A model generated the notes under the pieces. That model had not been told where the DNA came from. It saw only the letters and a list, made by a program, of their open reading frames with translations, and searched no databases. A stretch of DNA of 32,000 nucleotides from Candidatus Paracaedimonas acanthamoebae (GTDB taxonomy: Bacteria; Pseudomonadota; Alphaproteobacteria; Caedimonadales; Caedimonadaceae): NCBI GenBank assembly GCA_000743035.1, contig CP008936.1, positions 690,001 to 722,000 of the forward strand. The letters run 5' to 3'. The translations under genes and the position numbers were made by a program. Position 1 is the stretch's first letter. Every line of letters begins with the position of its first letter. Positions 22,941-31,250 of the stretch are shown here, piece after piece.

Positions 22941-23076
22941 ACAAAAGTCTATAATGGTTTAGACTATATAACTAAATCAGAGTCCAGGTCCAGTCGTATA
23001 GCCTTCTTGGCAGTCCAAAAGCCTTGCAGGGAGCGTTTGTAGGAAATGGTTTTTGGAATCTGACTGGAGAAAAAGT

Positions 23077-23442
23077 ATGAATAATGAATTGTTTGTTGGT
23101 AACTTGTCTTTTACAACATCTGAGCAAGACTTAGCGGCTTATTTCGAAGCAATAGGTCCGGTTGAATCTACAAAAGTGATTAAAGATCATCGCACAGGTC
23201 GGTCTCGTGGCTTTGGCTTCGTAAAAATGGTTAATGAAGCTGATGCAAAAAAGGCAATTGCTGACTATGATGGCAAAGATTTCTCAGGTCGTACCTTAAA
23301 AGTAAATATTGCAGGTGCTGGAGGTGAGGGAGGTGAACGCCGTAATAGTGGTGGTCCTCGTTTCAATAATAGAGGTCCTCGTGAAGGTGGCGGTCGTTCC
23401 TTCTCAAGAGGGGGAGACTTTGGAAGCCGCGGTTCTTACTAG
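23077..23442 (+). CDS. RRM-domain RNA-binding protein with a Gly/Arg-rich (RGG-like) C-terminal tail
   Basis: RNP-2 is LFVGNL and RNP-1 is RGFGFVKM. The tail is GAGGEGGERRNSGGPRFNNRGPREGGGRSFSRGGDFGSRG. The track starts at TTG 23053. The ATG at 23077 sits 6 nt after the GGAGA Shine-Dalgarno (23066-23070). Confidence 0.88.
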   Translation: MNNELFVGNLSFTTSEQDLAAYFEAIGPVESTKVIKDHRTGRSRGFGFVKMVNEADAKKAIADYDGKDFSGRTLKVNIAGAGGEGGERRNSGGPRFNNRGPREGGGRSFSRGGDFGSRGSY

Positions 23443-23998: not shown

Positions 23999-24520
23999 CT
24001 ATAACCTTATAAAGCCGCGCACTGTTGAGTCTTTCTGTCGTTTAAAGATGCCTGCGCAATTATGATAGTTGCCTTCAGACGTGATAATATAGTTTTGATG
24101 AATTTCAAGCAATATACCTATATGATCCAATTCTTTATCTTTTATAAGCTTATCAAATAAGACTAAATCTCCAGCCTCTGAAGGGCATGAACTTTCTATA
24201 AATATATCTTCTTGAATAGCCCAATTGTACCAAGTTCTCACTGCAGCTAAGTGCCATATAGAACTTTTTACAGGCATAAAATCTAATTCATAACCAGCCT
24301 GTTTCATAAGATAATAAACATAAGCACAGCACCAATCATAACCTATTTCATAATTTTTATATTTGGGATCTCTTGCTGAGAGAGCTTCTTTAAATACTGA
24401 TAAATATTTTTCAATTGTAGGACCTGCTTTAGAGGTATTTCCCTTTAATGCGAGCATTCCCTCCTGTCGTGCTAAACTTACAAGCATTTGTTTCCTACTT
24501 AATACTTTAGGTTTTATCAT
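23999..24520 (-). CDS. CHAP / NlpC-P60-like papain-fold amidase-peptidase with no signal peptide
   Basis: 173 aa. Candidate catalytic Cys in YDWCCAYVYY, then GDLVLFD, DHIGILL (His) and TSEGN. The order and spacing are typical of CHAP-type cell-wall hydrolases. Confidence 0.72.
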   Translation of the reverse strand: MIKPKVLSRKQMLVSLARQEGMLALKGNTSKAGPTIEKYLSVFKEALSARDPKYKNYEIGYDWCCAYVYYLMKQAGYELDFMPVKSSIWHLAAVRTWYNWAIQEDIFIESSCPSEAGDLVLFDKLIKDKELDHIGILLEIHQNYIITSEGNYHNCAGIFKRQKDSTVRGFIRL

Positions 24521-24531
24521 CTTAATAAAGA

Positions 24532-24783
24532 TTAATTGTGAGTTCCATTTAGGTAACGATAAACACTTGCCTTGGAGAGATCAAGTCTCGTTACAATAAG
24601 GGTATCCCCTTCCCTTACATATTCTAAACATTGCTTAAGGATGGGACGGTCATAATTGGTTGCACTTTTCTTCTCTTGAAAAACCTTGGAACAATTTCTC
24701 AACTTATCAAGTTGGACGTTTAAACTCTGTCCTAAAGAACTTACACGAGCATACCATATTAAAATGGTCATTTTTTGTCTCAT
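24532..24783 (-). pseudogene. Serine recombinase (resolvase/invertase) remnant with an in-frame internal deletion
   Basis: The N-terminus LIWYARVSSLGQSLNVQLDKL...DRPILKQCLEYVREGDTLIVTRLD is the resolvase catalytic-domain start (YARVS-type serine). It is fused directly at ~24580 to LSKASVYRYLNGTHN, which is the end of the C-terminal HTH. About 100 aa are missing (E-helix and most of the HTH). Confidence 0.8.
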
Positions 24784-24991
24784 AATATTTAAAAGGTATA
24801 TTTAAGAGGTTGTGAGAATATAGTTATGAGACATGTCAATGCAACACTTTGCTGAATATCTCATATTGTATACTTTTTGGTACATTTGAGGGACACAGCT
24901 ATATCAGTTTATTAAGCAATAGTATTTCACCTTCATTAATTCCAGCATAAACCCTAAAGTATATGAATTGTTAGATTATGGAGGTATGTGC

Positions 24992-25501
24992 ATGACAGAA
25001 CAAACTGATGATGATTTATCCATTGCTTCATTCAAAGATCAAGATACTAGAACTCTTGGCTTGGAGCAGTATAAACTGGTAGTTGAGTCAATCAATAAGA
25101 GTAATGATATTCGAGAACTCTCTAACAGCTATTGGATAACTGTTAATTCCTTAGGAGTATCAGCTGCTGCTTATATAAAAGACGCGAGCTCTCTTTCTCA
25201 TAACCATAAACCTTTAGTTTTATGGTTCATTATAGCCTTAGGTATAGTTCTATGCTTAAGTTGGCTTAACTTTCTTATGACAATTAAAAATAGTATTGAA
25301 CTGCGAAATAATCTTCTACTTGAAATGGAGAAGTACTTTCCTTTCAAAGCTTTTACAAAAAGCATTGCTGTATCAGGACGCCAGCAAGGTAAAGGATCTC
25401 TTACAATAAAAGAGATGATTCTACCTTGCTTATTCTTAATAAGCTATTTTGCTTTAGGATATTTTCTACTGTTTTACCAAGGTGAAGTTATTCGAAGTTA
25501 A
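24992..25501 (+). CDS. Small integral membrane protein (about 3 TM) with a soluble N-terminal helix, possibly RipA-like
   Basis: GGAGG at 24980-24984 sits 7 nt before ATG 24992 (the track starts at TTG 24968). The N-terminal motif is LEQYKLVVESINKSNDIRELSNSYWITVN. Hydrophobic segments are SLGVSAAAYI, LVLWFIIALGIVLCLSWLNFLMTI and MILPCLFLISYFALGYFLLFY. The family assignment is from memory only. Confidence 0.65.
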   Translation: MTEQTDDDLSIASFKDQDTRTLGLEQYKLVVESINKSNDIRELSNSYWITVNSLGVSAAAYIKDASSLSHNHKPLVLWFIIALGIVLCLSWLNFLMTIKNSIELRNNLLLEMEKYFPFKAFTKSIAVSGRQQGKGSLTIKEMILPCLFLISYFALGYFLLFYQGEVIRS

Positions 25502-25523
25502 CCCCTTAACGTGAGGAAATAAC

Positions 25524-25988
25524 ATGGACTATAATAAGAATGTTGGTAAGATAGAAAATCACGCTCTCTTAATTGCTAATAGCTCGGTTGCTAGAGTTTA
25601 TGAATTAAAAGGTCTTAAGCTTGGTAAGCTCATTTTTAACTTAAGTGCTTCTGAGACTATTATTGAGCATCAAAATGAAGGGCGAAGAGATAATTTTTCA
25701 CAGAGAATGAGCACTCCGGGTAGTTTTCTGGACCCTCATCAAGAAGCAAGAGAGATAAATAGAGCTAATTTTTCAAAAGTAATTTCAGATAAATTACTTA
25801 CGTTATATCAACATCATCCTTTTAACGCTCTTACTATAATCGCAGAACCAAAGGTATTAGGTGACTTAAGATCATACCTTAATAAAGATATTATTTCACT
25901 TGTACATGCTGAAATTGTAGAAAATCTTTCTCATTATGACGCGCAAGCTATCGAGAAGCATTTAACGTCTTTTCAAAGACGTCAGTAG
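25524..25988 (+). CDS. Host_attach (PF10116-like) / bacterial eRF1-like (baeRF1) domain protein
   Basis: 154 aa. HALLIANSSVARVYELKG...NEGRRDNFSQRMSTPGSFLDPHQEAREINRANFSKVISDKLL...FNALTIIAEPKVLGDLRSYL...AEIVENLSHYDAQAIEKHL follows the Host_attach consensus layout. Shine-Dalgarno GAGGA lies upstream, and the gene begins 22 nt after the preceding gene. Confidence 0.75.
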   Translation: MDYNKNVGKIENHALLIANSSVARVYELKGLKLGKLIFNLSASETIIEHQNEGRRDNFSQRMSTPGSFLDPHQEAREINRANFSKVISDKLLTLYQHHPFNALTIIAEPKVLGDLRSYLNKDIISLVHAEIVENLSHYDAQAIEKHLTSFQRRQ

Positions 25989-26012
25989 AAAATACTAGAA
26001 TTGGATATGATG

Positions 26013-26041
26013 AAAATAGGTTTAGATTTAACCTATTTTTA
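26013..26041 (+). terminator. Rho-independent terminator after the Host_attach-like gene
   Basis: aaaataggtt (26013-26022), a 7-nt loop, then aacctatttt (26030-26039) running into T residues. The stem is AT-rich. Confidence 0.5.
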
Positions 26042-26299
26042 AAAACATAGATTACGAAGAGGTTCTAATCTTGTAGTTTAGGTCAAGAATTAATACTTAG
26101 GAACTCTTGACTCTAAACATAATATACACTCACCCGGATTCTAAAATTCCTATGATCTGGTTTTCAAGGGGTTGAAAACGAGTATAAGAAAAAGTATGTA
26201 GCATAAGCACATAAAAGTGTTTAGATTAATTAAATTATTATACTTTTTTATAAAGTATTTACCATAATTAGATATTTAACTTAAAAATGGTACTATTAA

Positions 26300-26532
26300 G
26301 TTAACTAAAGAAAGTTAGAATTGTGAGTTAGAGAGTTTAAATGCCCATTTCTATGACGTCTTATCAAATGGCCAGAGAGCAATGGCCTCTTATACCAAGG
26401 CTCAAAGCCTTTACAAAAGTTATCGACAAAATAAAACAATCTATCATAATCTATCAACATTGAGGTAGCTCCCTATCGTTTTACAAATAGAGAATATCTC
26501 ATACCCTTTTTAGCTTAAACACCCCTCTTAAA
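26300..26532 (-). mobile_element. Truncated, degraded IS982-family copy (left end plus 5' transposase fragment), inverted relative to the full copy at 28597
   Basis: The reverse complement of 26461-26532 is aagaggggtgtttaagcta..tatgagatattctctatttgtaaaacgatagggagctacctca. It aligns with 28621-28690 of the full IS. Similarity continues, with indels, to ~26300 against IS position ~28830. The reading frame is broken (atg aga tat tct cta ttt gta aaa cga TAG). The outermost ~24 nt of the 27-bp terminal IR are not recognisable. Confidence 0.75.
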
Positions 26533-26785
26533 ATAATAATAAAATAACCAATAACGCTTGCTACAATAATTAAGCTTTTCTAAGCTCTACTTAGTATGTT
26601 TTCCTTTATTTACATTCGAGTTAAATGAACAAAATCAAGTATTGCAAATCAATACAATTTAAAACCTTCTCTTAAAATTTGTTATGCAATAAATAAAGTA
26701 GAATAGTTGTCTCTCTTTAACCTTAAAAATATTTCTTATTGATGGTTACTTAATAAGGTAGTTAACTAATCGAAAGGTATTACAA

Positions 26786-27061
26786 TTGTTTCATCAAAAT
26801 AAGATATTCCCCCTAGATCCTAAAAAATTTGAGATTAAAGAACTCACCTCTCAAGAACCCATCATCCCTCTTCAACCTGAAAGCCGTCAATCCATCGATG
26901 AAAAAAGAAATCTCAATAATCCTAAACCAATTGATGGCCAAGAGCCTCAAGATCGAAGAAAGAAAACGTCAATTTTAGAAGACATACCAAACCCTAATCC
27001 CAATAAAAACCCTAGGGATAATTGGGATGAAAACCATCCTATTCATCCTCTTATAGATTAA
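26786..27061 (+). CDS. Small Pro/Asn-rich hydrophilic hypothetical protein (TTG start)
   Basis: 91-aa ORF with AAAGG 8 nt upstream of the TTG. It is low complexity (PNPNPNKNP) with no hydrophobic segment. It would be the first ORF of a putative three-gene unit with the DUF378 gene. Confidence 0.4.
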   Translation: MFHQNKIFPLDPKKFEIKELTSQEPIIPLQPESRQSIDEKRNLNNPKPIDGQEPQDRRKKTSILEDIPNPNPNKNPRDNWDENHPIHPLID

Positions 27062-27095
27062 ATGATTTCAATAAATTTTATGTATGGAGGTTAAA

Positions 27096-27332
27096 ATGAT
27101 TACTGAAAATTATAGACGTTCTATTAATACGAAATCAGGAGAATATTATTTAAAGTTAGTTGCTAACATATTAACTCTTATTGGTGCCTTAAATTGGGGC
27201 TTAATTGGGATCAATAACTTTAATCTTGTAGCCTACCTTTTTAATCCCACTTTAAGCCGTATTATATATACGATCGTTGGTATATCTGGAATTTATCTTT
27301 TAATTAAATTATTTATAATAAGGAAACTATAA
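27096..27332 (+). CDS. DUF378-family small membrane protein
   Basis: LTLIGALNWGLIGINNFNLVAYLF...LSRIIYTIVGISGIYLL matches the DUF378 signature (GALNWGLVG...LV...YxxVG). GGAGG sits 5 nt upstream of ATG 27096 (the track starts at 27084). Confidence 0.8.
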   Translation: MITENYRRSINTKSGEYYLKLVANILTLIGALNWGLIGINNFNLVAYLFNPTLSRIIYTIVGISGIYLLIKLFIIRKL

Positions 27333-27592
27333 TGATAAAAAAATTACTTATAATCTCATCAATTGTTACGCTCGGCTGTGTACCAATATTGAAAGCAGGG
27401 GTAATTAATGTCCGAAATGAAAATAATAAAGAACTACTAATAAAAATTGAAGCTGTTGGAGATAGCTCAGCTGGTTTAAAACAAACAATTCCAGCTGAAT
27501 ATATTTCTTCTTTCACCATCAATTCAGATCAACTGAACGGTAAGACCAACTTTATAATAAAGATTATACAGTTACTTTCACAACAGATATAG
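27332..27592 (+). CDS. Small secreted or lipoprotein-like hypothetical protein, probably frameshifted near its 3' end
   Basis: Its start overlaps the DUF378 stop (TAATG). It has a signal-like N-terminus (MIKKLLIISSIVTLGCVP). The other forward frame stays open from 27544 to a TAA at 27646-27648, just before a strong hairpin (see findings). Confidence 0.5.
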   Translation: MIKKLLIISSIVTLGCVPILKAGVINVRNENNKELLIKIEAVGDSSAGLKQTIPAEYISSFTINSDQLNGKTNFIIKIIQLLSQQI

Positions 27593-27657
27593 TAGGAATA
27601 ACATGTATCGCTGAAGAAAGTTCTTTAATTAGAAATGTAATTAAGTAAAGCAAGTTT

Positions 27658-27695
27658 GTGCTGCAATTTTACGCCTCACTGTAAAATTGCAGCAC
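27658..27695. terminator. Perfect 14-bp-stem hairpin, a candidate terminator
   Basis: gtgctgcaatttta (27658-27671), a 10-nt loop, then taaaattgcagcac (27682-27695). There is no clean T-run on either side. Confidence 0.45.
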
Positions 27696-28218
27696 AATTA
27701 CTCTTATCAATTAATGAAATTTGATCAATTGCCAATGAAGTTAAAAGCTTTATAATTTTTATCACTTTATTTTAAAAAAGCCAAATGGCATTATTTAGAG
27801 AATCCTTTTAATTTCTTTATAGAAATATTTTAAGCTATAAGAAGATTTATTTAGTATAGTTTGTGGTTTTTCAGCGTCATATCTATCATATTTTGGATAA
27901 AGTCTGTGTAAACTTTTAGTAGTTGCATAATGTTTTTTTTCGCTATTTCCTATCATTTTTGAACCTTTCTTATTGAATATGGCACCTAACTATTCAACTA
28001 TAAGTAAATAGACAAAATTTTATGATGGGAATAATTAATATTTTTTAACAAAATAGTTGAATATAACTATTTGACCATTGAATTTTAATAAAAAAATTAA
28101 TAATGTTATTATATGTTTAATTTTATATTAAATTATCAACTTTTATTGATGTATATATCATCATACTTTTAAATTGTTCAGACTAAATTTGTTCAACTAC
28201 AATTTAAAGGAATTAATC

Positions 28219-28530
28219 ATGACTACACGTAAAGACGCTACACAAAATTCTCACAATAAAGAACATGGCAAGCAAGGATTTGCTTCTATGTCTAAAGAGA
28301 AAGTAAAAGAAATTGCTAGCAAAGGCGGTCAGTCACATGGAAAAAAACAGGACGAAAATAGCTCAAATAGGAGCAGCTCGTCATCTTCACACACAAACCA
28401 ATCACGTAATGAGCATCATGGCAAGCAAGGATTTGCTTCTATGTCTAAAGAGAAAGTAAAAGAAATTGCTAGCAAAGGTGGTCAATCACATGGAAAAAAC
28501 CATGACTCAAATAATAATCGTGATAGATAA
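28219..28530 (+). CDS. KGG-repeat general-stress protein (YciG/GsiB-like)
   Basis: Two copies of HGKQGFASMSKEKVKEIASKGGQSHGK (the KGG stress-induced acidophilic repeat) in a hydrophilic protein. AAGGA Shine-Dalgarno precedes ATG 28219 (the track starts at TTG 28174). Confidence 0.85.
   Translation: MTTRKDATQNSHNKEHGKQGFASMSKEKVKEIASKGGQSHGKKQDENSSNRSSSSSSHTNQSRNEHHGKQGFASMSKEKVKEIASKGGQSHGKNHDSNNNRDR
28264..28499 (+). repeat. Intragenic direct repeat, two 83-bp copies (28264-28346 and 28407-28489... see evidence)
   Basis: catggcaagcaaggatttgcttctatgtctaaagagaaagtaaaagaaattgctagcaaagg[c/t]ggtca[g/a]tcacatggaaaaaa occurs twice, starting at 28264 and at 28407, and the second copy ends near 28499. 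The two copies differ at only two positions, both synonymous third-codon positions. Confidence 0.9.
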
Positions 28531-28549
28531 TTTATCATATTAATTTTAA

Positions 28550-28582
28550 AAAGCGTACCAATAATAAGGTACGCTTTTTTTA
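28550..28582 (+). terminator. Rho-independent terminator of the KGG-repeat gene
   Basis: agcgtacc (28552-28559), loop aataataa, ggtacgct (28568-28575), followed by a run of seven T residues. Confidence 0.75.
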
Positions 28583-28596
28583 TTGTGTTGTAAGAA

Positions 28597-29570
28597 CTTA
28601 ATTTAACCTGAGTTGCGTTTAAGAGGGGTGTTTAAGCTAAGAGATGTATGAGGTATTCTCTATTTGCAAAAAGATAGGGAGCTACCTCAATGTTGATAGA
28701 TTATTTTTGTTTGTCGATGACTTTTGTAAGGGTTTTGAGTCTTGGTATCAGAAGCAATTGCTATCTGATCGTTTGATAAAGCGCCATAGAGATGGACATC
28801 TAAAATTATCAGAAGTACTGACAATTCTGATTGCATACCATCAATCTGGGATGGCTTGTTTTAAATACTTTTACTTGGACTTAAGCTCTTATTATCGTCA
28901 TTTGTTTCCAAGGCTTGTTCATTATGCTCGTTTTATCAAACTCATTAAGCAAGCCTTCCCAGCCCTTGTTTGCTTACTCAAAAGTCTAGTAGGAGAGATC
29001 ACAGAATATTTATTCATTGATTCTACCCCCATGGCTGTTTGCCATAATTTGCGAGAGAAGAAGCACAAGGTCTTTAAGGGATTGGCTACGAAAGGAAAAA
29101 CTTCAACAGGGTGGTTTTTTGGTTTGAAGATTCATTTGATCTTTAACACCCATGGTGAAATTATTCATCTTGCTATCACCCCTGGAAATGTTAACGACAA
29201 AACACCTGTGGCAGAAATGGTCAAAGGTATAACAGCTAAACTCATTGGAGATAAAGGATACCTCTCTCATAAACTCTTCCAACACTTATTTGAAAATGGG
29301 ATCACACTCTTACCAAAATTAAGAAAAATATGAAAAACATCCTTATGGATACAGCAGATAAACTCATGTTGATGAAAAGATCTTTTATAGAAACTATATT
29401 TTCTTCTCTCAAATCATTGAATACCTTAATCCATCACCGACATCGATGCCCAATCAATGCTTTTGCTCATCTTTTTGCTCGGCTTATTAGTTATCAACTC
29501 AGGACTGACAAGCCCTCTTTGCATAATCTCACAACGCTCATCACTTAAACACAACTCGGGTTAAGTAAAG
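28597..29570 (+). mobile_element. IS982-family insertion sequence, full length (~974 bp) with a frameshifted transposase
   Basis: The 27-bp terminal inverted repeats match at 23/27 positions: IRL cttaatttaacctgagttgcgtttaag (28597-28623) and IRR cttaaacacaactcgggttaagtaaag (29544-29570). They enclose an IS982-type DDE transposase. No flanking target-site duplication is evident. Confidence 0.85.
28644..29548 (+). pseudogene. IS982-family DDE transposase split into two ORFs (28644-29333 and 29330-29548) by a 1-nt frameshift
   Basis: FVDDFCKGF, IDSTPMAVCHN, GWFFGLKIHL, LIGDKGYLS, then KLRKI* / MKNILMDTADKLMLMKRSFIETIFSSLK...HHRHRCPINAF. Intact IS982 transposases read through ..RKNMKN.. here. 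One extra A in the A5 run (29322-29326) would restore the frame. Confidence 0.8.
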
Positions 29571-29574
29571 ATCA

Positions 29575-29825
29575 AACAGCTCGTCAAAAGAAACGAGGTA
29601 ACCCAAGAGATGGGTAGGTCCTTGTTGTGTTTCGTCAATTAACGGATGAACGGCCCACTTATGGATATTGGCGCATCACAGCGCTGCTCAGGAAGAAACT
29701 CAACAAGCCATTAACGCCAAAAGTGTTTATCGGATCATGAAAGAATATGGCTTACTTTTACAAAAGCATGATAAGAGGCCTGTTTGCGTTCATGACGGTA
29801 AGATTATTACCTTGAAAAGGAAAAA
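29575..29825 (+). pseudogene. IS3-family (rve-type OrfB) transposase remnant
   Basis: Hand translation gives LVVFRQLTDERPTYGYWRITALLRKKLNKP, then after a frameshift INAKSVYRIMKEYGLLLQKHDKRPVCVHDGKIITLKR. This is the conserved N-terminal part of IS3 OrfB (..RPTYGYRRITALL..VNHKRVYRIM.E.GLL..). It is truncated on the left by the IS982 IRR and lacks the DDE core on the right. Confidence 0.6.
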
Positions 29826-29828
29826 TGA

Positions 29829-30113
29829 TTAACTTTTTTTATTTTCAATTGTGAGCCAAGGATACATCTGCTGCGTAATGTACTTTTCTAATAGTTTTCT
29901 TACCTCTTCAGAAAATAAGGGAGATATTTTATTTAATAGAGCTAAGGGAGATTCTCCATACATAGCACTTAAATATTCTAATGAGTCAATAAAGTCATGA
30001 GAAAGCCTTTCCATATCATATATATCTATATTATGGAATAATTCTTCTAACTGAGGCCTAACTTGGTCCCATTCATTTTCAATTTTATTAATTGCTATTT
30101 TATCAATATTCAT
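29829..30113 (-). CDS. Small acidic helical hypothetical protein
   Basis: 94-aa ORF with an ATG start, no TM segment and no recognisable motif. It abuts the IS3 remnant. Confidence 0.45.
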   Translation of the reverse strand: MNIDKIAINKIENEWDQVRPQLEELFHNIDIYDMERLSHDFIDSLEYLSAMYGESPLALLNKISPLFSEEVRKLLEKYITQQMYPWLTIENKKS

Positions 30114-30386
30114 AATTCTAAAATGTGTTTATGTTTCTTATTAAGAATATTCATAAATATCAAACTCAAACCAGTTAACAATTTGAATAATTTTAAATAT
30201 TTGGCCGTGAACATAGTATAATTAATCAAGACTTATTTATTAAATAGTTAAATGATAATACGTTACAAATTGGCGTAATTTAAAGCTAAGCGCTTATAAT
30301 CTTTTAATATACTAAGATTAATAAAGAACTTTGGTCTATCCCTTGCCTATATAGACAAGGGAATAAAACAAAAAAGCATCATAAGT

Positions 30387-30653
30387 CTAACGATTGTTAT
30401 CATGCTTATCATGAGTGTCTTGTTCCTCATCAATGTCGCCTGTATCTTCATAATGGTTGCCTGAGAGCCAATCACTAATCTTCTCTTCAATAGCTTCTTT
30501 TGTATCTCCATACTTCTCTTGAAGGTAACCTACAGCTTCTTGCATCCCACCCTTCATCTTATCTAATTCTAAATCTGTAAGGTCGCCCCAAATTTCTTTA
30601 AGATTTCCTTTAATCTGATTCCACTTGCCTTCTAATTGATCTGTATTCATCAT
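30387..30653 (-). CDS. csbD: CsbD-family stress-response protein
   Basis: QLEGKWNQIKGNLKEIWGDLTDLELDKMKGGMQEAVGYLQEKYGDTKEAIEEKISDW is the CsbD signature. AGGAGG spacing favours the second ATG (30650) as the start. Confidence 0.88.
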   Translation of the reverse strand: MMNTDQLEGKWNQIKGNLKEIWGDLTDLELDKMKGGMQEAVGYLQEKYGDTKEAIEEKISDWLSGNHYEDTGDIDEEQDTHDKHDNNR

Positions 30654-30974
30654 GGCCTCCTTCTTATATAGTTGATAAGCTTTTATAAGTTGAAGAATTC
30701 CACTAATTTTATACAGTAGAATTTTACTTAAAAATTCTTCTTAAAAATATGGACATAGCTAGTATATCAGTGTTTGTTAAAGCTCCTATATCATGCTTGC
30801 GGCCATTGTTTATTTACGTTGATACTATGCTGGTTTACATCGCAATCTTCTGCTATATATGTGATTGAAAATATAATGTTTTCCGTATACTCCCCTCCCC
30901 TTTCATATACTCAATGATTTTCCTCAACAGTTTGCTGTGCTAAGGTCTCAAGTGTTAAATGAAAGGAACAAAAA

Positions 30975-31250
30975 ATGACTAAAGCTGAATTAGTTGCAGA
31001 AATTGCAAAAGTAGCAGGATCAACAAAGCAAGATTCTGAGCGTGCTCTTAATGGCGTTTTTGATTCAATCAAAGAAGCGCTGAGTAAAGGTGAGGAAGTC
31101 CGTCTAACAGGTTTTGGAAGCTTCAAAGTAAACGGGAGAGCCGCCCGCACAGGAAGAAACCCAAGAACAGGTGCAGAGATTAAGATTGCTGCAAGCAAAG
31201 TTCCTGTTTTTAGGCCGGGAAAAGAACTGAAAGACGCTGTTAACAAATAA
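30975..31250 (+). CDS. hupB: Nucleoid-associated DNA-binding protein HU
   Basis: The 91-aa protein MTKAELVAEIAKVAGSTKQDSERALNGVFDSIKEALSKGEEVRLTGFGSFKVNGRAARTGRNPRTGAEIKIAASKVPVFRPGKELKDAVN is a canonical HU/IHF fold sequence. Confidence 0.93.
   Translation: MTKAELVAEIAKVAGSTKQDSERALNGVFDSIKEALSKGEEVRLTGFGSFKVNGRAARTGRNPRTGAEIKIAASKVPVFRPGKELKDAVNK

What the first reader, a model, noticed from the sequence alone, without database searches (positions are those of the whole stretch)
24968..26041. Bicistronic cassette: 3-TM membrane protein + Host_attach/baeRF1-like protein inside mobile-element debris
Seen in sequence:
- The two same-strand genes (24992-25501 and 25524-25988) are 22 nt apart.
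- Each has its own strong Shine-Dalgarno.
- They are bounded upstream by a divergent intergenic region shared with a dead resolvase.
- They are bounded downstream by a hairpin terminator (26013-26041), which is followed by an IS982 fragment. The pair therefore looks like a discrete, horizontally delivered module.

The second protein follows the Host_attach consensus. As far as I recall from comparative-genomics work by Burroughs and Aravind, that family belongs to the bacterial eRF1-like (baeRF1) radiation. That radiation is proposed to act on stalled or attacked ribosomes in conflict systems, but none has a demonstrated mechanism.

The first protein is a small multi-TM protein with an amphipathic N-terminal helix (LEQYKLVVES..R..N). 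This is the architecture of membrane-perturbing effectors or sensors.

A membrane effector coupled to a release-factor-like module would be an uncharacterised stress or conflict system.
Basis: partly seen in the sequence, partly recalled or inferred. Interest (0 to 1): 0.7.

Follow-up and report, generated by a model that had tools for sequence, protein, structure and literature searches.

The report
Membrane protein plus mini-Balon stress operon
In an amoeba endosymbiont, a small membrane protein gene and a one-domain relative of the ribosome-silencing factor Balon form a tight two-gene operon inside a stress-gene island; the pairing is real but confined to a few related bacteria, so it is moderately interesting rather than a new widespread system.

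Summary
The window is the Candidatus Paracaedimonas acanthamoebae chromosome. Gene 1 (24992-25501) is a Pfam 8xMP "octameric membrane protein". Gene 2 (25524-25988) is a Host_attach / baeRF_family12 protein. They lie 22 nt apart, and each has its own Shine-Dalgarno sequence.

An AlphaFold model of gene 2 matches best the middle domain of Balon, a ribosome hibernation factor with a demonstrated mechanism, and next eRF1/aRF1/Pelota. Gene 2 has only that one domain and no GGQ motif.

The pair, together with a 28-nt upstream element, is kept as a unit in three unrelated flanks. A very different Host_attach also follows an 8xMP in a Caedimonas genome. However, only 4 of 40 evaluable 8xMP loci carry Host_attach, and none of 9 other Host_attach loci carries 8xMP.

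In this clade the commonest 8xMP neighbours are stress genes: CsbD, DUF2383, DUF378, KGG, hemerythrin and HSP20. Distant 8xMP members are fused or adjacent to TIR, SLOG or NB-ARC proteins.

Best reading: a lineage-restricted, co-transcribed stress or dormancy operon. It would combine a non-catalytic, Balon-like ribosome binder with a membrane oligomer. A conflict-system reading is not excluded.

The parts
24906..24957 (+). Conserved upstream element, probably a promoter or operator. It consists of the 28-nt box AGTTTATTAAGCAATAGTATTTCACCTT (24906-24933) and a second short box CNCTAA ending at 24957.
   Evidence: Shared only by the three pair-bearing loci (window, L001/L002, L003/L004/L073). 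It occurs once in the window, with 0 matches expected by chance. A promoter function is inferred, not shown.
24980..24984 (+). Shine-Dalgarno sequence GGAGG of gene 1, 7 nt before the ATG.
   Evidence: Read directly from the sequence.
24992..25501 (+). Gene 1 (IM40_03720), 169 aa, a member of the Pfam PF24838 8xMP 'octameric membrane protein' family. It is predicted to form a long helical hairpin plus a C-terminal transmembrane helix.
   Evidence: Pfam E 7.9e-23, 81.2 bits. Identical to the NCBI protein. AF2 model with pLDDT 91.4. Hydropathy analysis.
25502..25523 (+). 22-nt intercistronic spacer containing the Shine-Dalgarno sequence GAGGA (25513-25517).
   Evidence: The same 22-nt gap, with a nearly identical sequence, is found in L001 and L003.
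25524..25988 (+). Gene 2 (IM40_03725), 154 aa, a Host_attach / baeRF_family12 protein. It is a stand-alone homologue of the aeRF1/Balon middle domain and has no GGQ motif.
   Evidence: Pfam E 1.5e-17 and 1.5e-14. AF2 model with pLDDT 80. Foldseek top hits are Balon on 70S ribosomes (E 7e-7), followed by aRF1, eRF1 and Pelota.
26011..26041 (+). AU-rich hairpin after the operon; a possible weak terminator.
   Evidence: -11 kcal/mol, z = -2.7. Not called by the terminator scan. Not conserved in L001 or L003.
24532..24783 (-). Internally deleted serine-resolvase remnant (83 aa), divergent from the operon.
   Evidence: Pfam Resolvase match to positions 2-73 of 145. Homologous to the intact 208-aa resolvase of L001.
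26305..26460 (-). IS982-family transposase N-terminal fragment. It lies within an approximately 200-nt IS end (26336-26532) that is repeated in inverted orientation at 28618-28804.
   Evidence: 65% identity to the transposase at 28644-29333. Inverted repeats I1 and I2.
27084..27332 (+). DUF378 small membrane protein, a recurrent neighbour of 8xMP genes in this clade.
   Evidence: Pfam E 2e-19. Found near 8xMP in 7 distinct loci.
28174..28530 (+). KGG-repeat stress-induced protein, a recurrent neighbour of 8xMP genes.
   Evidence: Pfam KGG E 1.5e-18. Found near 8xMP in 4 distinct loci, including syntenic L020/L066.

Best explanation
The locus is a lineage-restricted, co-transcribed stress or dormancy operon. 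It sits in a stress-gene island of an amoeba endosymbiont.

Gene 2 is a one-domain relative of the ribosome hibernation factor Balon. It keeps only the middle domain, the part that in aeRF1, Pelota and Balon reaches the peptidyl-transferase centre, and it lacks the GGQ motif. I infer that it binds the large-subunit A-site/PTC region without catalysis and helps to silence or protect ribosomes under stress.

Gene 1 is a small membrane protein of the 8xMP family, which Pfam calls octameric. Its conserved residues lie on the helices I take to be cytoplasmic, on an N-in topology argued from the K/R distribution. I infer that it forms a membrane oligomer made in the same response. It would either change membrane state or hold its cytoplasmic partner at the membrane, as it presumably does for the TIR or SLOG domains fused to it in other bacteria.

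What is shown:
- the family memberships;
- the fold of gene 2;
- the operon-like anatomy;
- conservation of the pair as a unit;
- the stress-gene context.

What is inferred:
- ribosome binding by gene 2;
- oligomerisation of gene 1;
- any physical link between the two proteins.
For: Anatomy. A 22-nt spacer, two Shine-Dalgarno sequences and one conserved upstream element; homology in three different flanks begins and ends with the pair.

Fold of gene 2. The AF2 model has the order beta3-loop-alpha-beta-alpha-beta-alpha. Foldseek ranks Balon on 70S ribosomes first (8v9j_z E 7e-7, TMq 0.62; also 8rd8_B). Next come aRF1, eRF1 and Pelota, and the isolated eRF1 M-domain 2hst with TMt 0.64.

No catalytic motif. 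There is no GGQ in the sequence, and the equivalent loop (residues 48-66) is disordered and variable. This fits the statement by Burroughs and Aravind that core-only baeRF-1 families are probably non-catalytic (PMC6514570).

Known relatives and stress.
- Balon genes lie in stress operons with Hsp20, OsmY, RaiA and HdeD (PMC10901736).
- Host attachment proteins are induced by microoxia in B. diazoefficiens and by heat shock in M. loti.

Context in this clade. Across 54 distinct 8xMP loci, the recurrent neighbours within 3 kb are CsbD (about 11), an HTH-receiver regulator (9), DUF2383 (9), DUF378 (7), a histidine kinase (6), DUF2795 (5), KGG (4) and hemerythrin (4). HSP20, seen beside one distinct 8xMP, and BON appear in individual homologous loci.

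Other Host_attach genes. They sit next to DUF2383 or opposite ClpB.

A second pairing. In Caedimonas (L040) the 8xMP is 46% identical to gene 1, but the Host_attach is only 22% identical to gene 2. The nearest relatives of the two Host_attach lineages are unpaired.
Against: - The pairing is rare. It occurs in 4 of 40 evaluable 8xMP loci, and none of the 9 other Host_attach loci has an 8xMP within 4-5 kb.
- Two close 8xMP relatives (73% and 68% identical) lack Host_attach.
- Gene 2 lacks the Balon N and C domains, which bind the decoding centre and EF-Tu. Ribosome binding by the middle domain alone is unproven.
- No canonical alphaproteobacterial general-stress promoter (GGAAC..CGTT) was found, and no motif is shared with the neighbouring stress genes.
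- There are no expression data for this organism.
- Distant 8xMP members sit in conflict-type contexts.
Confidence: 0.5

Rival explanations
1. A conflict (abortive-infection or addiction) module. The 8xMP would be a pore-forming or membrane-disrupting effector, as it appears to be when fused to TIR or SLOG domains or paired with TIR or NB-ARC proteins. The Host_attach protein would be its sensor or regulator, reporting attacked or stalled ribosomes.
For: - 8xMP members fused to ThsB-like TIR domains (P0126, P0136, P0138), and one (P0100) with a weak, below-cut-off match to the SLOG family YAcAr (E 6e-4, 20 bits against a 28.2 cut-off).
- A Rhizobium plasmid homologue lies directly after an NB-ARC protein.
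- A Novosphingobium plasmid homologue starts 2 nt after a TIR gene, with a HEPN gene nearby. An Acaryochloris plasmid homologue lies near a TIR gene.
- The pair lies among mobile-element debris and toxin-antitoxin genes: a resolvase remnant, IS982, MazE/PIN and IS110 in L001, and a MobA fragment in L003.
- Burroughs and Aravind proposed conflict-driven origins for baeRF-1.
Against: - Neither protein has a PADLOC or PHROG hit, and there is no phage or viral-contig match.
- In the clade of this protein the neighbours are stress and housekeeping genes, not defence genes.
- 8xMP stands alone in 36 of 40 evaluable loci. It is therefore not a toxin that needs Host_attach as an antidote.
- The TIR, SLOG and NB-ARC partners belong to members only about 25-32% identical to gene 1.
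- No sequence link to SLATT families was found.
Confidence: 0.2
2. There is no dedicated functional coupling. Two independent stress-island genes happened to become neighbours in a genome region that is constantly reshuffled by IS elements. Each does its own job, and they share at most a promoter.
For: - Both families are usually found without the other.
- 8xMP is found next to many different stress genes: hemerythrin, DUF2383, DUF2795 and DUF4385.
- Within such islands, adjacency by chance is far more likely than genome-wide.
- Close 8xMP relatives have lost, or never had, Host_attach.
Against: - The exact 22-nt junction and the upstream element are retained in three completely different flanks. 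The conserved DNA block is the pair itself.
- A second, very divergent Host_attach lineage also sits immediately downstream of an 8xMP in Caedimonas.
- The two genes have tight operon spacing, each with its own Shine-Dalgarno sequence.
Confidence: 0.25

Closest known systems
Balon (P. urativorans) and its homologues Msmeg1130 and Rv2629: bacterial aeRF1-type ribosome hibernation factors
   Same: - Best structural match of gene 2 (Foldseek E 7e-7 to 5e-6, TMq 0.53-0.62).
- No GGQ motif.
- Encoded among stress genes such as Hsp20 and OsmY/BON.
   Different: - Balon has three domains (about 360-375 aa). Its N domain binds the decoding centre and its C domain binds EF-Tu.
- Gene 2 is 154 aa and has the middle domain only.
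- About 12-16% identity over the aligned part.
- Ribosome binding has not been tested.
Host_attach (PF10116; called AtsE in a UniRef name) / baeRF_family12 (PF18856)
   Same: Gene 2 scores well above both curated cut-offs. It shares the invariant A18, F83, L112, G113 and R116 columns with 56 family members.
   Different: - It belongs to a small, divergent subgroup with a longer loop (NEGRRDNFSQRMSTPGSFLDPHQ).
- Only three clusters are 69-100% identical, and the next relative is 34% identical.
- Most family members are monocistronic and have no 8xMP neighbour.
aeRF1 / Pelota middle domain
   Same: Same fold order. Foldseek E 3e-5 to 1e-3 to aRF1, eRF1 and Pelota, and to the isolated eRF1 M-domain 2hst.
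   Different: No GGQ motif, no N or C domain, and no detectable sequence similarity to any PDB chain.
8xMP, octameric membrane protein family (PF24838)
   Same: Gene 1 matches the model end to end (positions 1-135 of 136, 81 bits). It shares the conserved Q26, Y27, R41, N45, G84, W91, E113 and P145.
   Different: - No function is known for the family.
- No solved structure matches: the best Foldseek E is 0.9 and there are no significant sequence hits (best profile E-value 0.2, judged chance).
- This clade is stand-alone and lies among stress genes, unlike the TIR-, SLOG- or NB-ARC-linked members.
SLATT-type transmembrane effector domains of nucleotide-signalling conflict systems
   Same: By analogy only: a small helical transmembrane module that in some members is fused to TIR domains (three members) or, on one weak sub-threshold match, a SLOG domain.
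   Different: None of the 74 8xMP members matches a SLATT Pfam model. One member has a weak S_4TM hit. No nucleotide-generating partner is present at this locus.

Membership tests
Host_attach (PF10116) | Whole-protein score above Pfam's gathering cut-off | tested here: met
   64.9 bits against 26.7; model positions 3-138 of 138 matched
baeRF_family12 (PF18856) | Whole-protein score above Pfam's gathering cut-off | tested here: met
   55.2 bits against 27.7; the precomputed Pfam annotation for P0001 agrees
aeRF1 superfamily (middle domain) | RNase-H-like core: three-stranded meander, loop, long helix, then beta-alpha-beta-alpha | tested here: met
   AF2 secondary structure is E13-18, E22-29, E32-41, loop, H71-97, E102-107, H109-118, E127-132, H140-153. 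26 PDB hits at E <= 1e-3, all of them Balon, aRF1, eRF1 or Pelota.
Catalytic release factors (aeRF1, VLRF-1) | Conserved GGQ (or GGxSQ) in the loop before the long helix | tested here: not met
   The loop reads HQNEGRRDNFSQRMSTPGSFLDPHQ. There is no GGQ, and the loop differs in length and sequence among relatives.
Balon hibernation factors | Three-domain N-M-C architecture with a decoding-centre-binding N domain and an EF-Tu-binding C domain | tested here: not met
   The protein is 154 aa and forms a single domain. Balon chains are 360-375 aa, and only their middle part aligns (TMt 0.24-0.28).
Balon hibernation factors | Binds the ribosomal A site/PTC of vacant or translating ribosomes under stress | not testable with these tools
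   Needs ribosome co-sedimentation or cryo-EM
Balon hibernation factors | Gene located among stress-response genes | tested here: met
   DUF378 and KGG lie downstream in the window. HSP20 and BON are present in L003, and CsbD, DUF2383 and hemerythrin in related loci.
8xMP (PF24838) | Whole-protein score above Pfam's gathering cut-off | tested here: met
   81.2 bits against 30. 362 representative clusters at E <= 1e-3.
8xMP (PF24838) | Octameric assembly in the membrane | not testable with these tools
   Only a monomer model could be made. No solved homologue was found.
SLATT effector domains | Match to a SLATT family model | tested here: not met
   0 of 74 8xMP members hit any SLATT model at E <= 1
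Known anti-phage defence systems (PADLOC) | Match of either protein to a defence-system model | tested here: not met
   No hit at E <= 0.1
Toxin-antitoxin pair (membrane toxin plus cytosolic antidote) | The toxin gene is always accompanied by its antidote | tested here: not met
   8xMP lacks Host_attach in 36 of 40 loci that have at least 600 nt of downstream sequence

The most novel reading that the evidence does not exclude
The 8xMP oligomer may be a membrane platform that docks, or is gated by, the one-domain Balon-like protein. Membrane state and ribosome silencing would then be directly coupled. This could take the form of membrane-tethered ribosome hibernation, or of a ribosome-sensing switch that opens a pore. 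The same platform would be used with TIR, SLOG or NB-ARC partners in conflict systems. That would make Host_attach proteins a large family (more than 1,600 clusters) of 'mini-Balons' and would give 8xMP a function.
Probability: 0.12. Interest if true: 0.75.

Novelty: new variant of a known kind. Interest (0 to 1): 0.4.

Why it matters
Balon showed that bacterial aeRF1 homologues silence ribosomes under stress. The far more numerous one-domain Host_attach proteins have no tested function. This operon is a compact case in which such a protein is hard-wired to a membrane partner. That partner's family is otherwise linked to TIR and NB-ARC immune-type proteins.

If the two proteins interact, the locus would connect membrane state to ribosome hibernation and assign roles to two uncharacterised Pfam families. 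If they do not, the locus is simply another stress-island arrangement in an IS-rich endosymbiont genome.

Tried and rejected
- **General-stress promoter.** I searched 300 nt upstream of every 8xMP gene for the alphaproteobacterial sigma-EcfG promoter (GGAAC-N15-18-CGTT). There were no matches.
- **Shared upstream motif.** K-mer counts gave only AT-rich words. The two-box element of the pair occurs upstream only at the pair loci.
- **Riboswitch or leader RNA.** Rfam at E <= 1 over 24500-26700 found nothing.
- **Defence and phage libraries.** PADLOC, PHROGs (for the two operon proteins), phage tblastn and the viral-contig motif scan all gave nothing.
- **Solved structures by sequence.** The single proteins and the Host_attach profile gave no hits; the 8xMP profile gave only weak hits (best E 0.2), judged chance.
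- **Foldseek of the 8xMP model against the PDB.** Nothing significant; the best hit was ClyA at E 0.9, which I treat as noise.
- **The search for related loci with 8xMP alignments.** I replaced it with a custom degenerate motif, EQY[KR]-x12-RE-x2-N-x2-W.
- **Literature searches** for '8xMP', 'octameric membrane protein' and SLATT plus octamer found nothing relevant.
- **Toxin-antitoxin reading.** Rejected, because 8xMP is usually found alone.
- **DNA search of plasmids.** No match.
Full report
**What is there**

The window comes from the chromosome of Candidatus Paracaedimonas acanthamoebae, an alphaproteobacterial (Holosporales) endosymbiont of Acanthamoeba. The two proteins are identical to IM40_03720 and IM40_03725, which lie on a 1.72-Mb contig.

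- Gene 1 runs from 24992 to 25501 and gene 2 from 25524 to 25988. Both are on the + strand, 22 nt apart.
- GGAGG lies 7 nt before the first ATG, and GAGGA lies 6 nt before the second.
- Upstream, in divergent orientation, is an 83-aa remnant of a serine resolvase. Beyond it lies a CHAP/NlpC endolysin-like gene.
- Downstream there is an AU-rich hairpin at 26011-26041. It folds at -11 kcal/mol with z = -2.7. The terminator scan did not call it.
- An IS982 N-terminal fragment follows on the minus strand.

Two need qualifying. The 'terminator' is weak and not conserved. '3-TM' means two strongly hydrophobic segments plus one marginal helix.

**Identity of the proteins**

Gene 2 matches Pfam Host_attach (64.9 bits) and baeRF_family12 (55.2 bits). 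Both scores are well above the curated cut-offs.

I modelled it with a 57-sequence alignment. The mean pLDDT is 80, the core is above 90, and the loop at residues 48-66 is disordered. The model has the order of the aeRF1 middle domain.

Foldseek against the PDB gave this ranking:
- First, the hibernation factor Balon bound to 70S ribosomes: 8v9j_z at E 7e-7 and TMq 0.62, followed by 8v9l and 8rd8.
- Then archaeal and eukaryotic RF1, and Pelota.
- Also the isolated eRF1 M-domain 2hst.

There is no GGQ motif. The equivalent loop varies in length and sequence among relatives. This agrees with the view of Burroughs and Aravind that core-only baeRF-1 families are non-catalytic (PMC6514570).

Balon occupies the A site, together with EF-Tu, in stressed cells (PMC10901736). 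Gene 2, however, has only one of Balon's three domains.

Gene 1 matches Pfam PF24838, '8xMP, octameric membrane protein family' (81 bits).
- A 74-sequence alignment gave a confident model with pLDDT 91.4. It shows a 48-residue helix, a turn, a 41-residue helix, a short helix and a C-terminal transmembrane helix.
- Nothing in the PDB resembles it significantly.
- The conserved residues are Q26, Y27, R41, N45, E113 and P145. They lie on the parts predicted to face the cytoplasm, and the K/R distribution favours an N-in topology.

**Is the pair a unit?**

Homologues of both genes, 69-78% identical, lie side by side with the same 22-nt spacer in two other assemblies:
- A JGI metagenome contig. Its flanks carry MazE/PIN, a GNAT gene and IS110.
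- GCA_006365035.1. Its flanks carry a MobA fragment, a hybrid histidine kinase, HSP20 and BON.

A three-way DNA alignment shows where homology begins and ends:
- It begins about 86 nt before the first ATG, at a 28-nt element (AGTTTATTARGCRA-N4-ATTTCAYCTT) found only at these loci.
- It stops at the second stop codon.

What is conserved in three unrelated surroundings is therefore the promoter-like element plus the two genes.

**How general is the pairing?**

I collected 8xMP loci in three ways:
- a degenerate DNA motif built from invariant residues, scanned over the genome collection (25 true loci) and the metagenome collection (24 true loci);
- tblastn against plasmids;
- exact-protein look-ups.

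After removing duplicates there are 54 distinct loci, and 40 of them have at least 600 nt of downstream sequence. A Host_attach gene follows the 8xMP in only four: the window, the two loci above, and a Caedimonas genome (L040).

In L040 the 8xMP is 46% identical to gene 1, but the Host_attach is only 22% identical to gene 2. The closest relatives of the two Host_attach lineages are P0212 (34%) and P0201 (41%). Both are unpaired. Two different Host_attach lineages therefore sit behind 8xMP genes.

Two further observations weigh against a general link:
- Two 8xMP genes, 73% and 68% identical to gene 1, have no Host_attach.
- Nine other Host_attach loci (Rhodopseudomonas, Paraburkholderia, Burkholderia, Sphingomonas, Phyllobacterium and metagenomes) have no 8xMP within 4-5 kb.

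The link is more than chance for a random gene pair. It is nevertheless lineage-restricted and clearly not obligatory.

**Context**

Across the 54 loci (this clade plus four distant plasmid homologues), the recurrent genes within 3 kb of 8xMP are:

| Neighbour | Distinct loci |
|---|---|
| CsbD | about 11 |
| HTH_3-receiver response regulator | 9 |
| DUF2383 / ferritin-like | 9 |
| DUF378 | 7 |
| Histidine kinase | 6 |
| DUF2795 | 5 |
| KGG | 4 |
| Hemerythrin | 4 |
| DUF4385 | 3 |

HSP20, alternative oxidase and DUF2267 occur in single cases.

The window itself has DUF378 (27084-27332) and a KGG-repeat protein (28174-28530) just downstream. The same set of a 91-aa ORF, DUF378, KGG and 8xMP is syntenic in Caedibacter sp. 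38-128.

Other evidence also ties the gene 2 family to stress:
- Host_attach genes elsewhere sit before DUF2383 or opposite ClpB.
- They are induced by microoxia and by heat shock in rhizobia.
- Balon genes are likewise reported in stress operons.

This is the basis for the preferred reading, a stress or dormancy operon.

**The other side of 8xMP**

More distant family members, about 25-32% identical to gene 1, show a different pattern:
- They are fused at the N-terminus to ThsB-like TIR domains (three cases); one further member has only a weak, below-cut-off match to a SLOG family.
- One follows an NB-ARC gene with overlapping ends on a Rhizobium plasmid.
- One starts 2 nt after a TIR gene, with a HEPN gene nearby, on a Novosphingobium plasmid.
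- One lies near a TIR gene on an Acaryochloris plasmid.

At the family level, 8xMP therefore behaves like a membrane module recruited by immune-type signalling proteins. No SLATT relationship is detectable. PADLOC does not recognise either protein, and no phage carries a homologue.

**Mechanism and weights**

1. Stress or dormancy operon (confidence 0.5). The two genes are co-transcribed from the conserved upstream element under stress.
   - Gene 2 binds the large-subunit A-site/PTC region as a non-catalytic blocker or protector.
   - Gene 1 forms a membrane oligomer in the same response. It may serve as a docking platform for gene 2, in the position that TIR or SLOG domains occupy in fused relatives.
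2. Conflict or abortive-infection module (confidence 0.2).
3. No dedicated coupling between two stress-island genes (confidence 0.25).

Ribosome binding, oligomerisation and any interaction between the two proteins are inferences, not results.

**Novelty**

Both proteins belong to existing Pfam families, and the fold of gene 2 has a characterised relative. The new elements are the operon arrangement and the recognition that Host_attach is a middle-domain-only Balon relative.

I rate the locus as a new variant of a known kind, with interest 0.4. The most novel reading not excluded is direct coupling of membrane state to ribosome silencing through an 8xMP/mini-Balon complex. I give it about 12% probability.

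Noticed in passing
window 26336-26532 and 28618-28804: Two IS982 left ends of about 200 nt, 82-89% complementary, lie in inverted orientation. They bracket the 2.1-kb segment that carries a 91-aa ORF, DUF378, an 86-aa ORF and the KGG stress gene. The arrangement resembles a composite transposon.
   Followed up: partly
window 28240-28360 and 28393-28513: The KGG-repeat stress protein gene contains an internal 121-nt direct duplication (86% identity). This gives two copies of the HGKQGFASMSKEKVKEIASKGGQSHGK unit.
   Followed up: no
window 23999-24520 (-): A 173-aa CHAP/NlpC-P60 protein with endolysin-like PHROG hits lies next to the resolvase remnant. It is probably a relic of a prophage or plasmid.
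   Followed up: no
window 23053-23442 (+): An RRM_1 RNA-binding protein with a Gly/Arg-rich tail, which I take to be uncommon for a bacterium. It lies just upstream of the accessory region.
   Followed up: no
L013 349-4456; L085 3463-4450; P0126, P0136, P0138, P0100: Distant 8xMP members are fused to TIR domains (one has a weak SLOG-family match), or are encoded directly after NB-ARC or TIR genes on plasmids. This suggests that the 8xMP family is a membrane module of immune-type systems.
   Followed up: partly
L010 845-4499 (Paracaedibacter acanthamoebae 15-kb plasmid) and L038: A compact plasmid-borne stress cassette: 8xMP, DUF2383, DUF378, a PA2169-type four-helix bundle, CsbD, an unknown 133-aa protein, and a divergent HTH_3-receiver response regulator. 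The same order recurs in a Paracaedibacteraceae genome assembled from a metagenome.
   Followed up: partly
L023 925-2572: In a Thiotrichales genome assembled from a metagenome, a 379-aa RES-domain protein starts 4 nt after the 8xMP gene. This is another possible effector-type pairing.
   Followed up: no
L020 2150-5810 and window 24992-28530: The 91-aa ORF (window 26786-27061), DUF378, KGG and 8xMP are syntenic between Paracaedimonas and Caedibacter sp. 38-128. The stress island therefore predates the IS982 insertions and the arrival of Host_attach.
   Followed up: partly
window 24000-31000: G+C content falls to 0.28-0.34 here, against 0.36-0.41 in the first 20 kb. This is consistent with an accessory, IS-rich region.
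   Followed up: no
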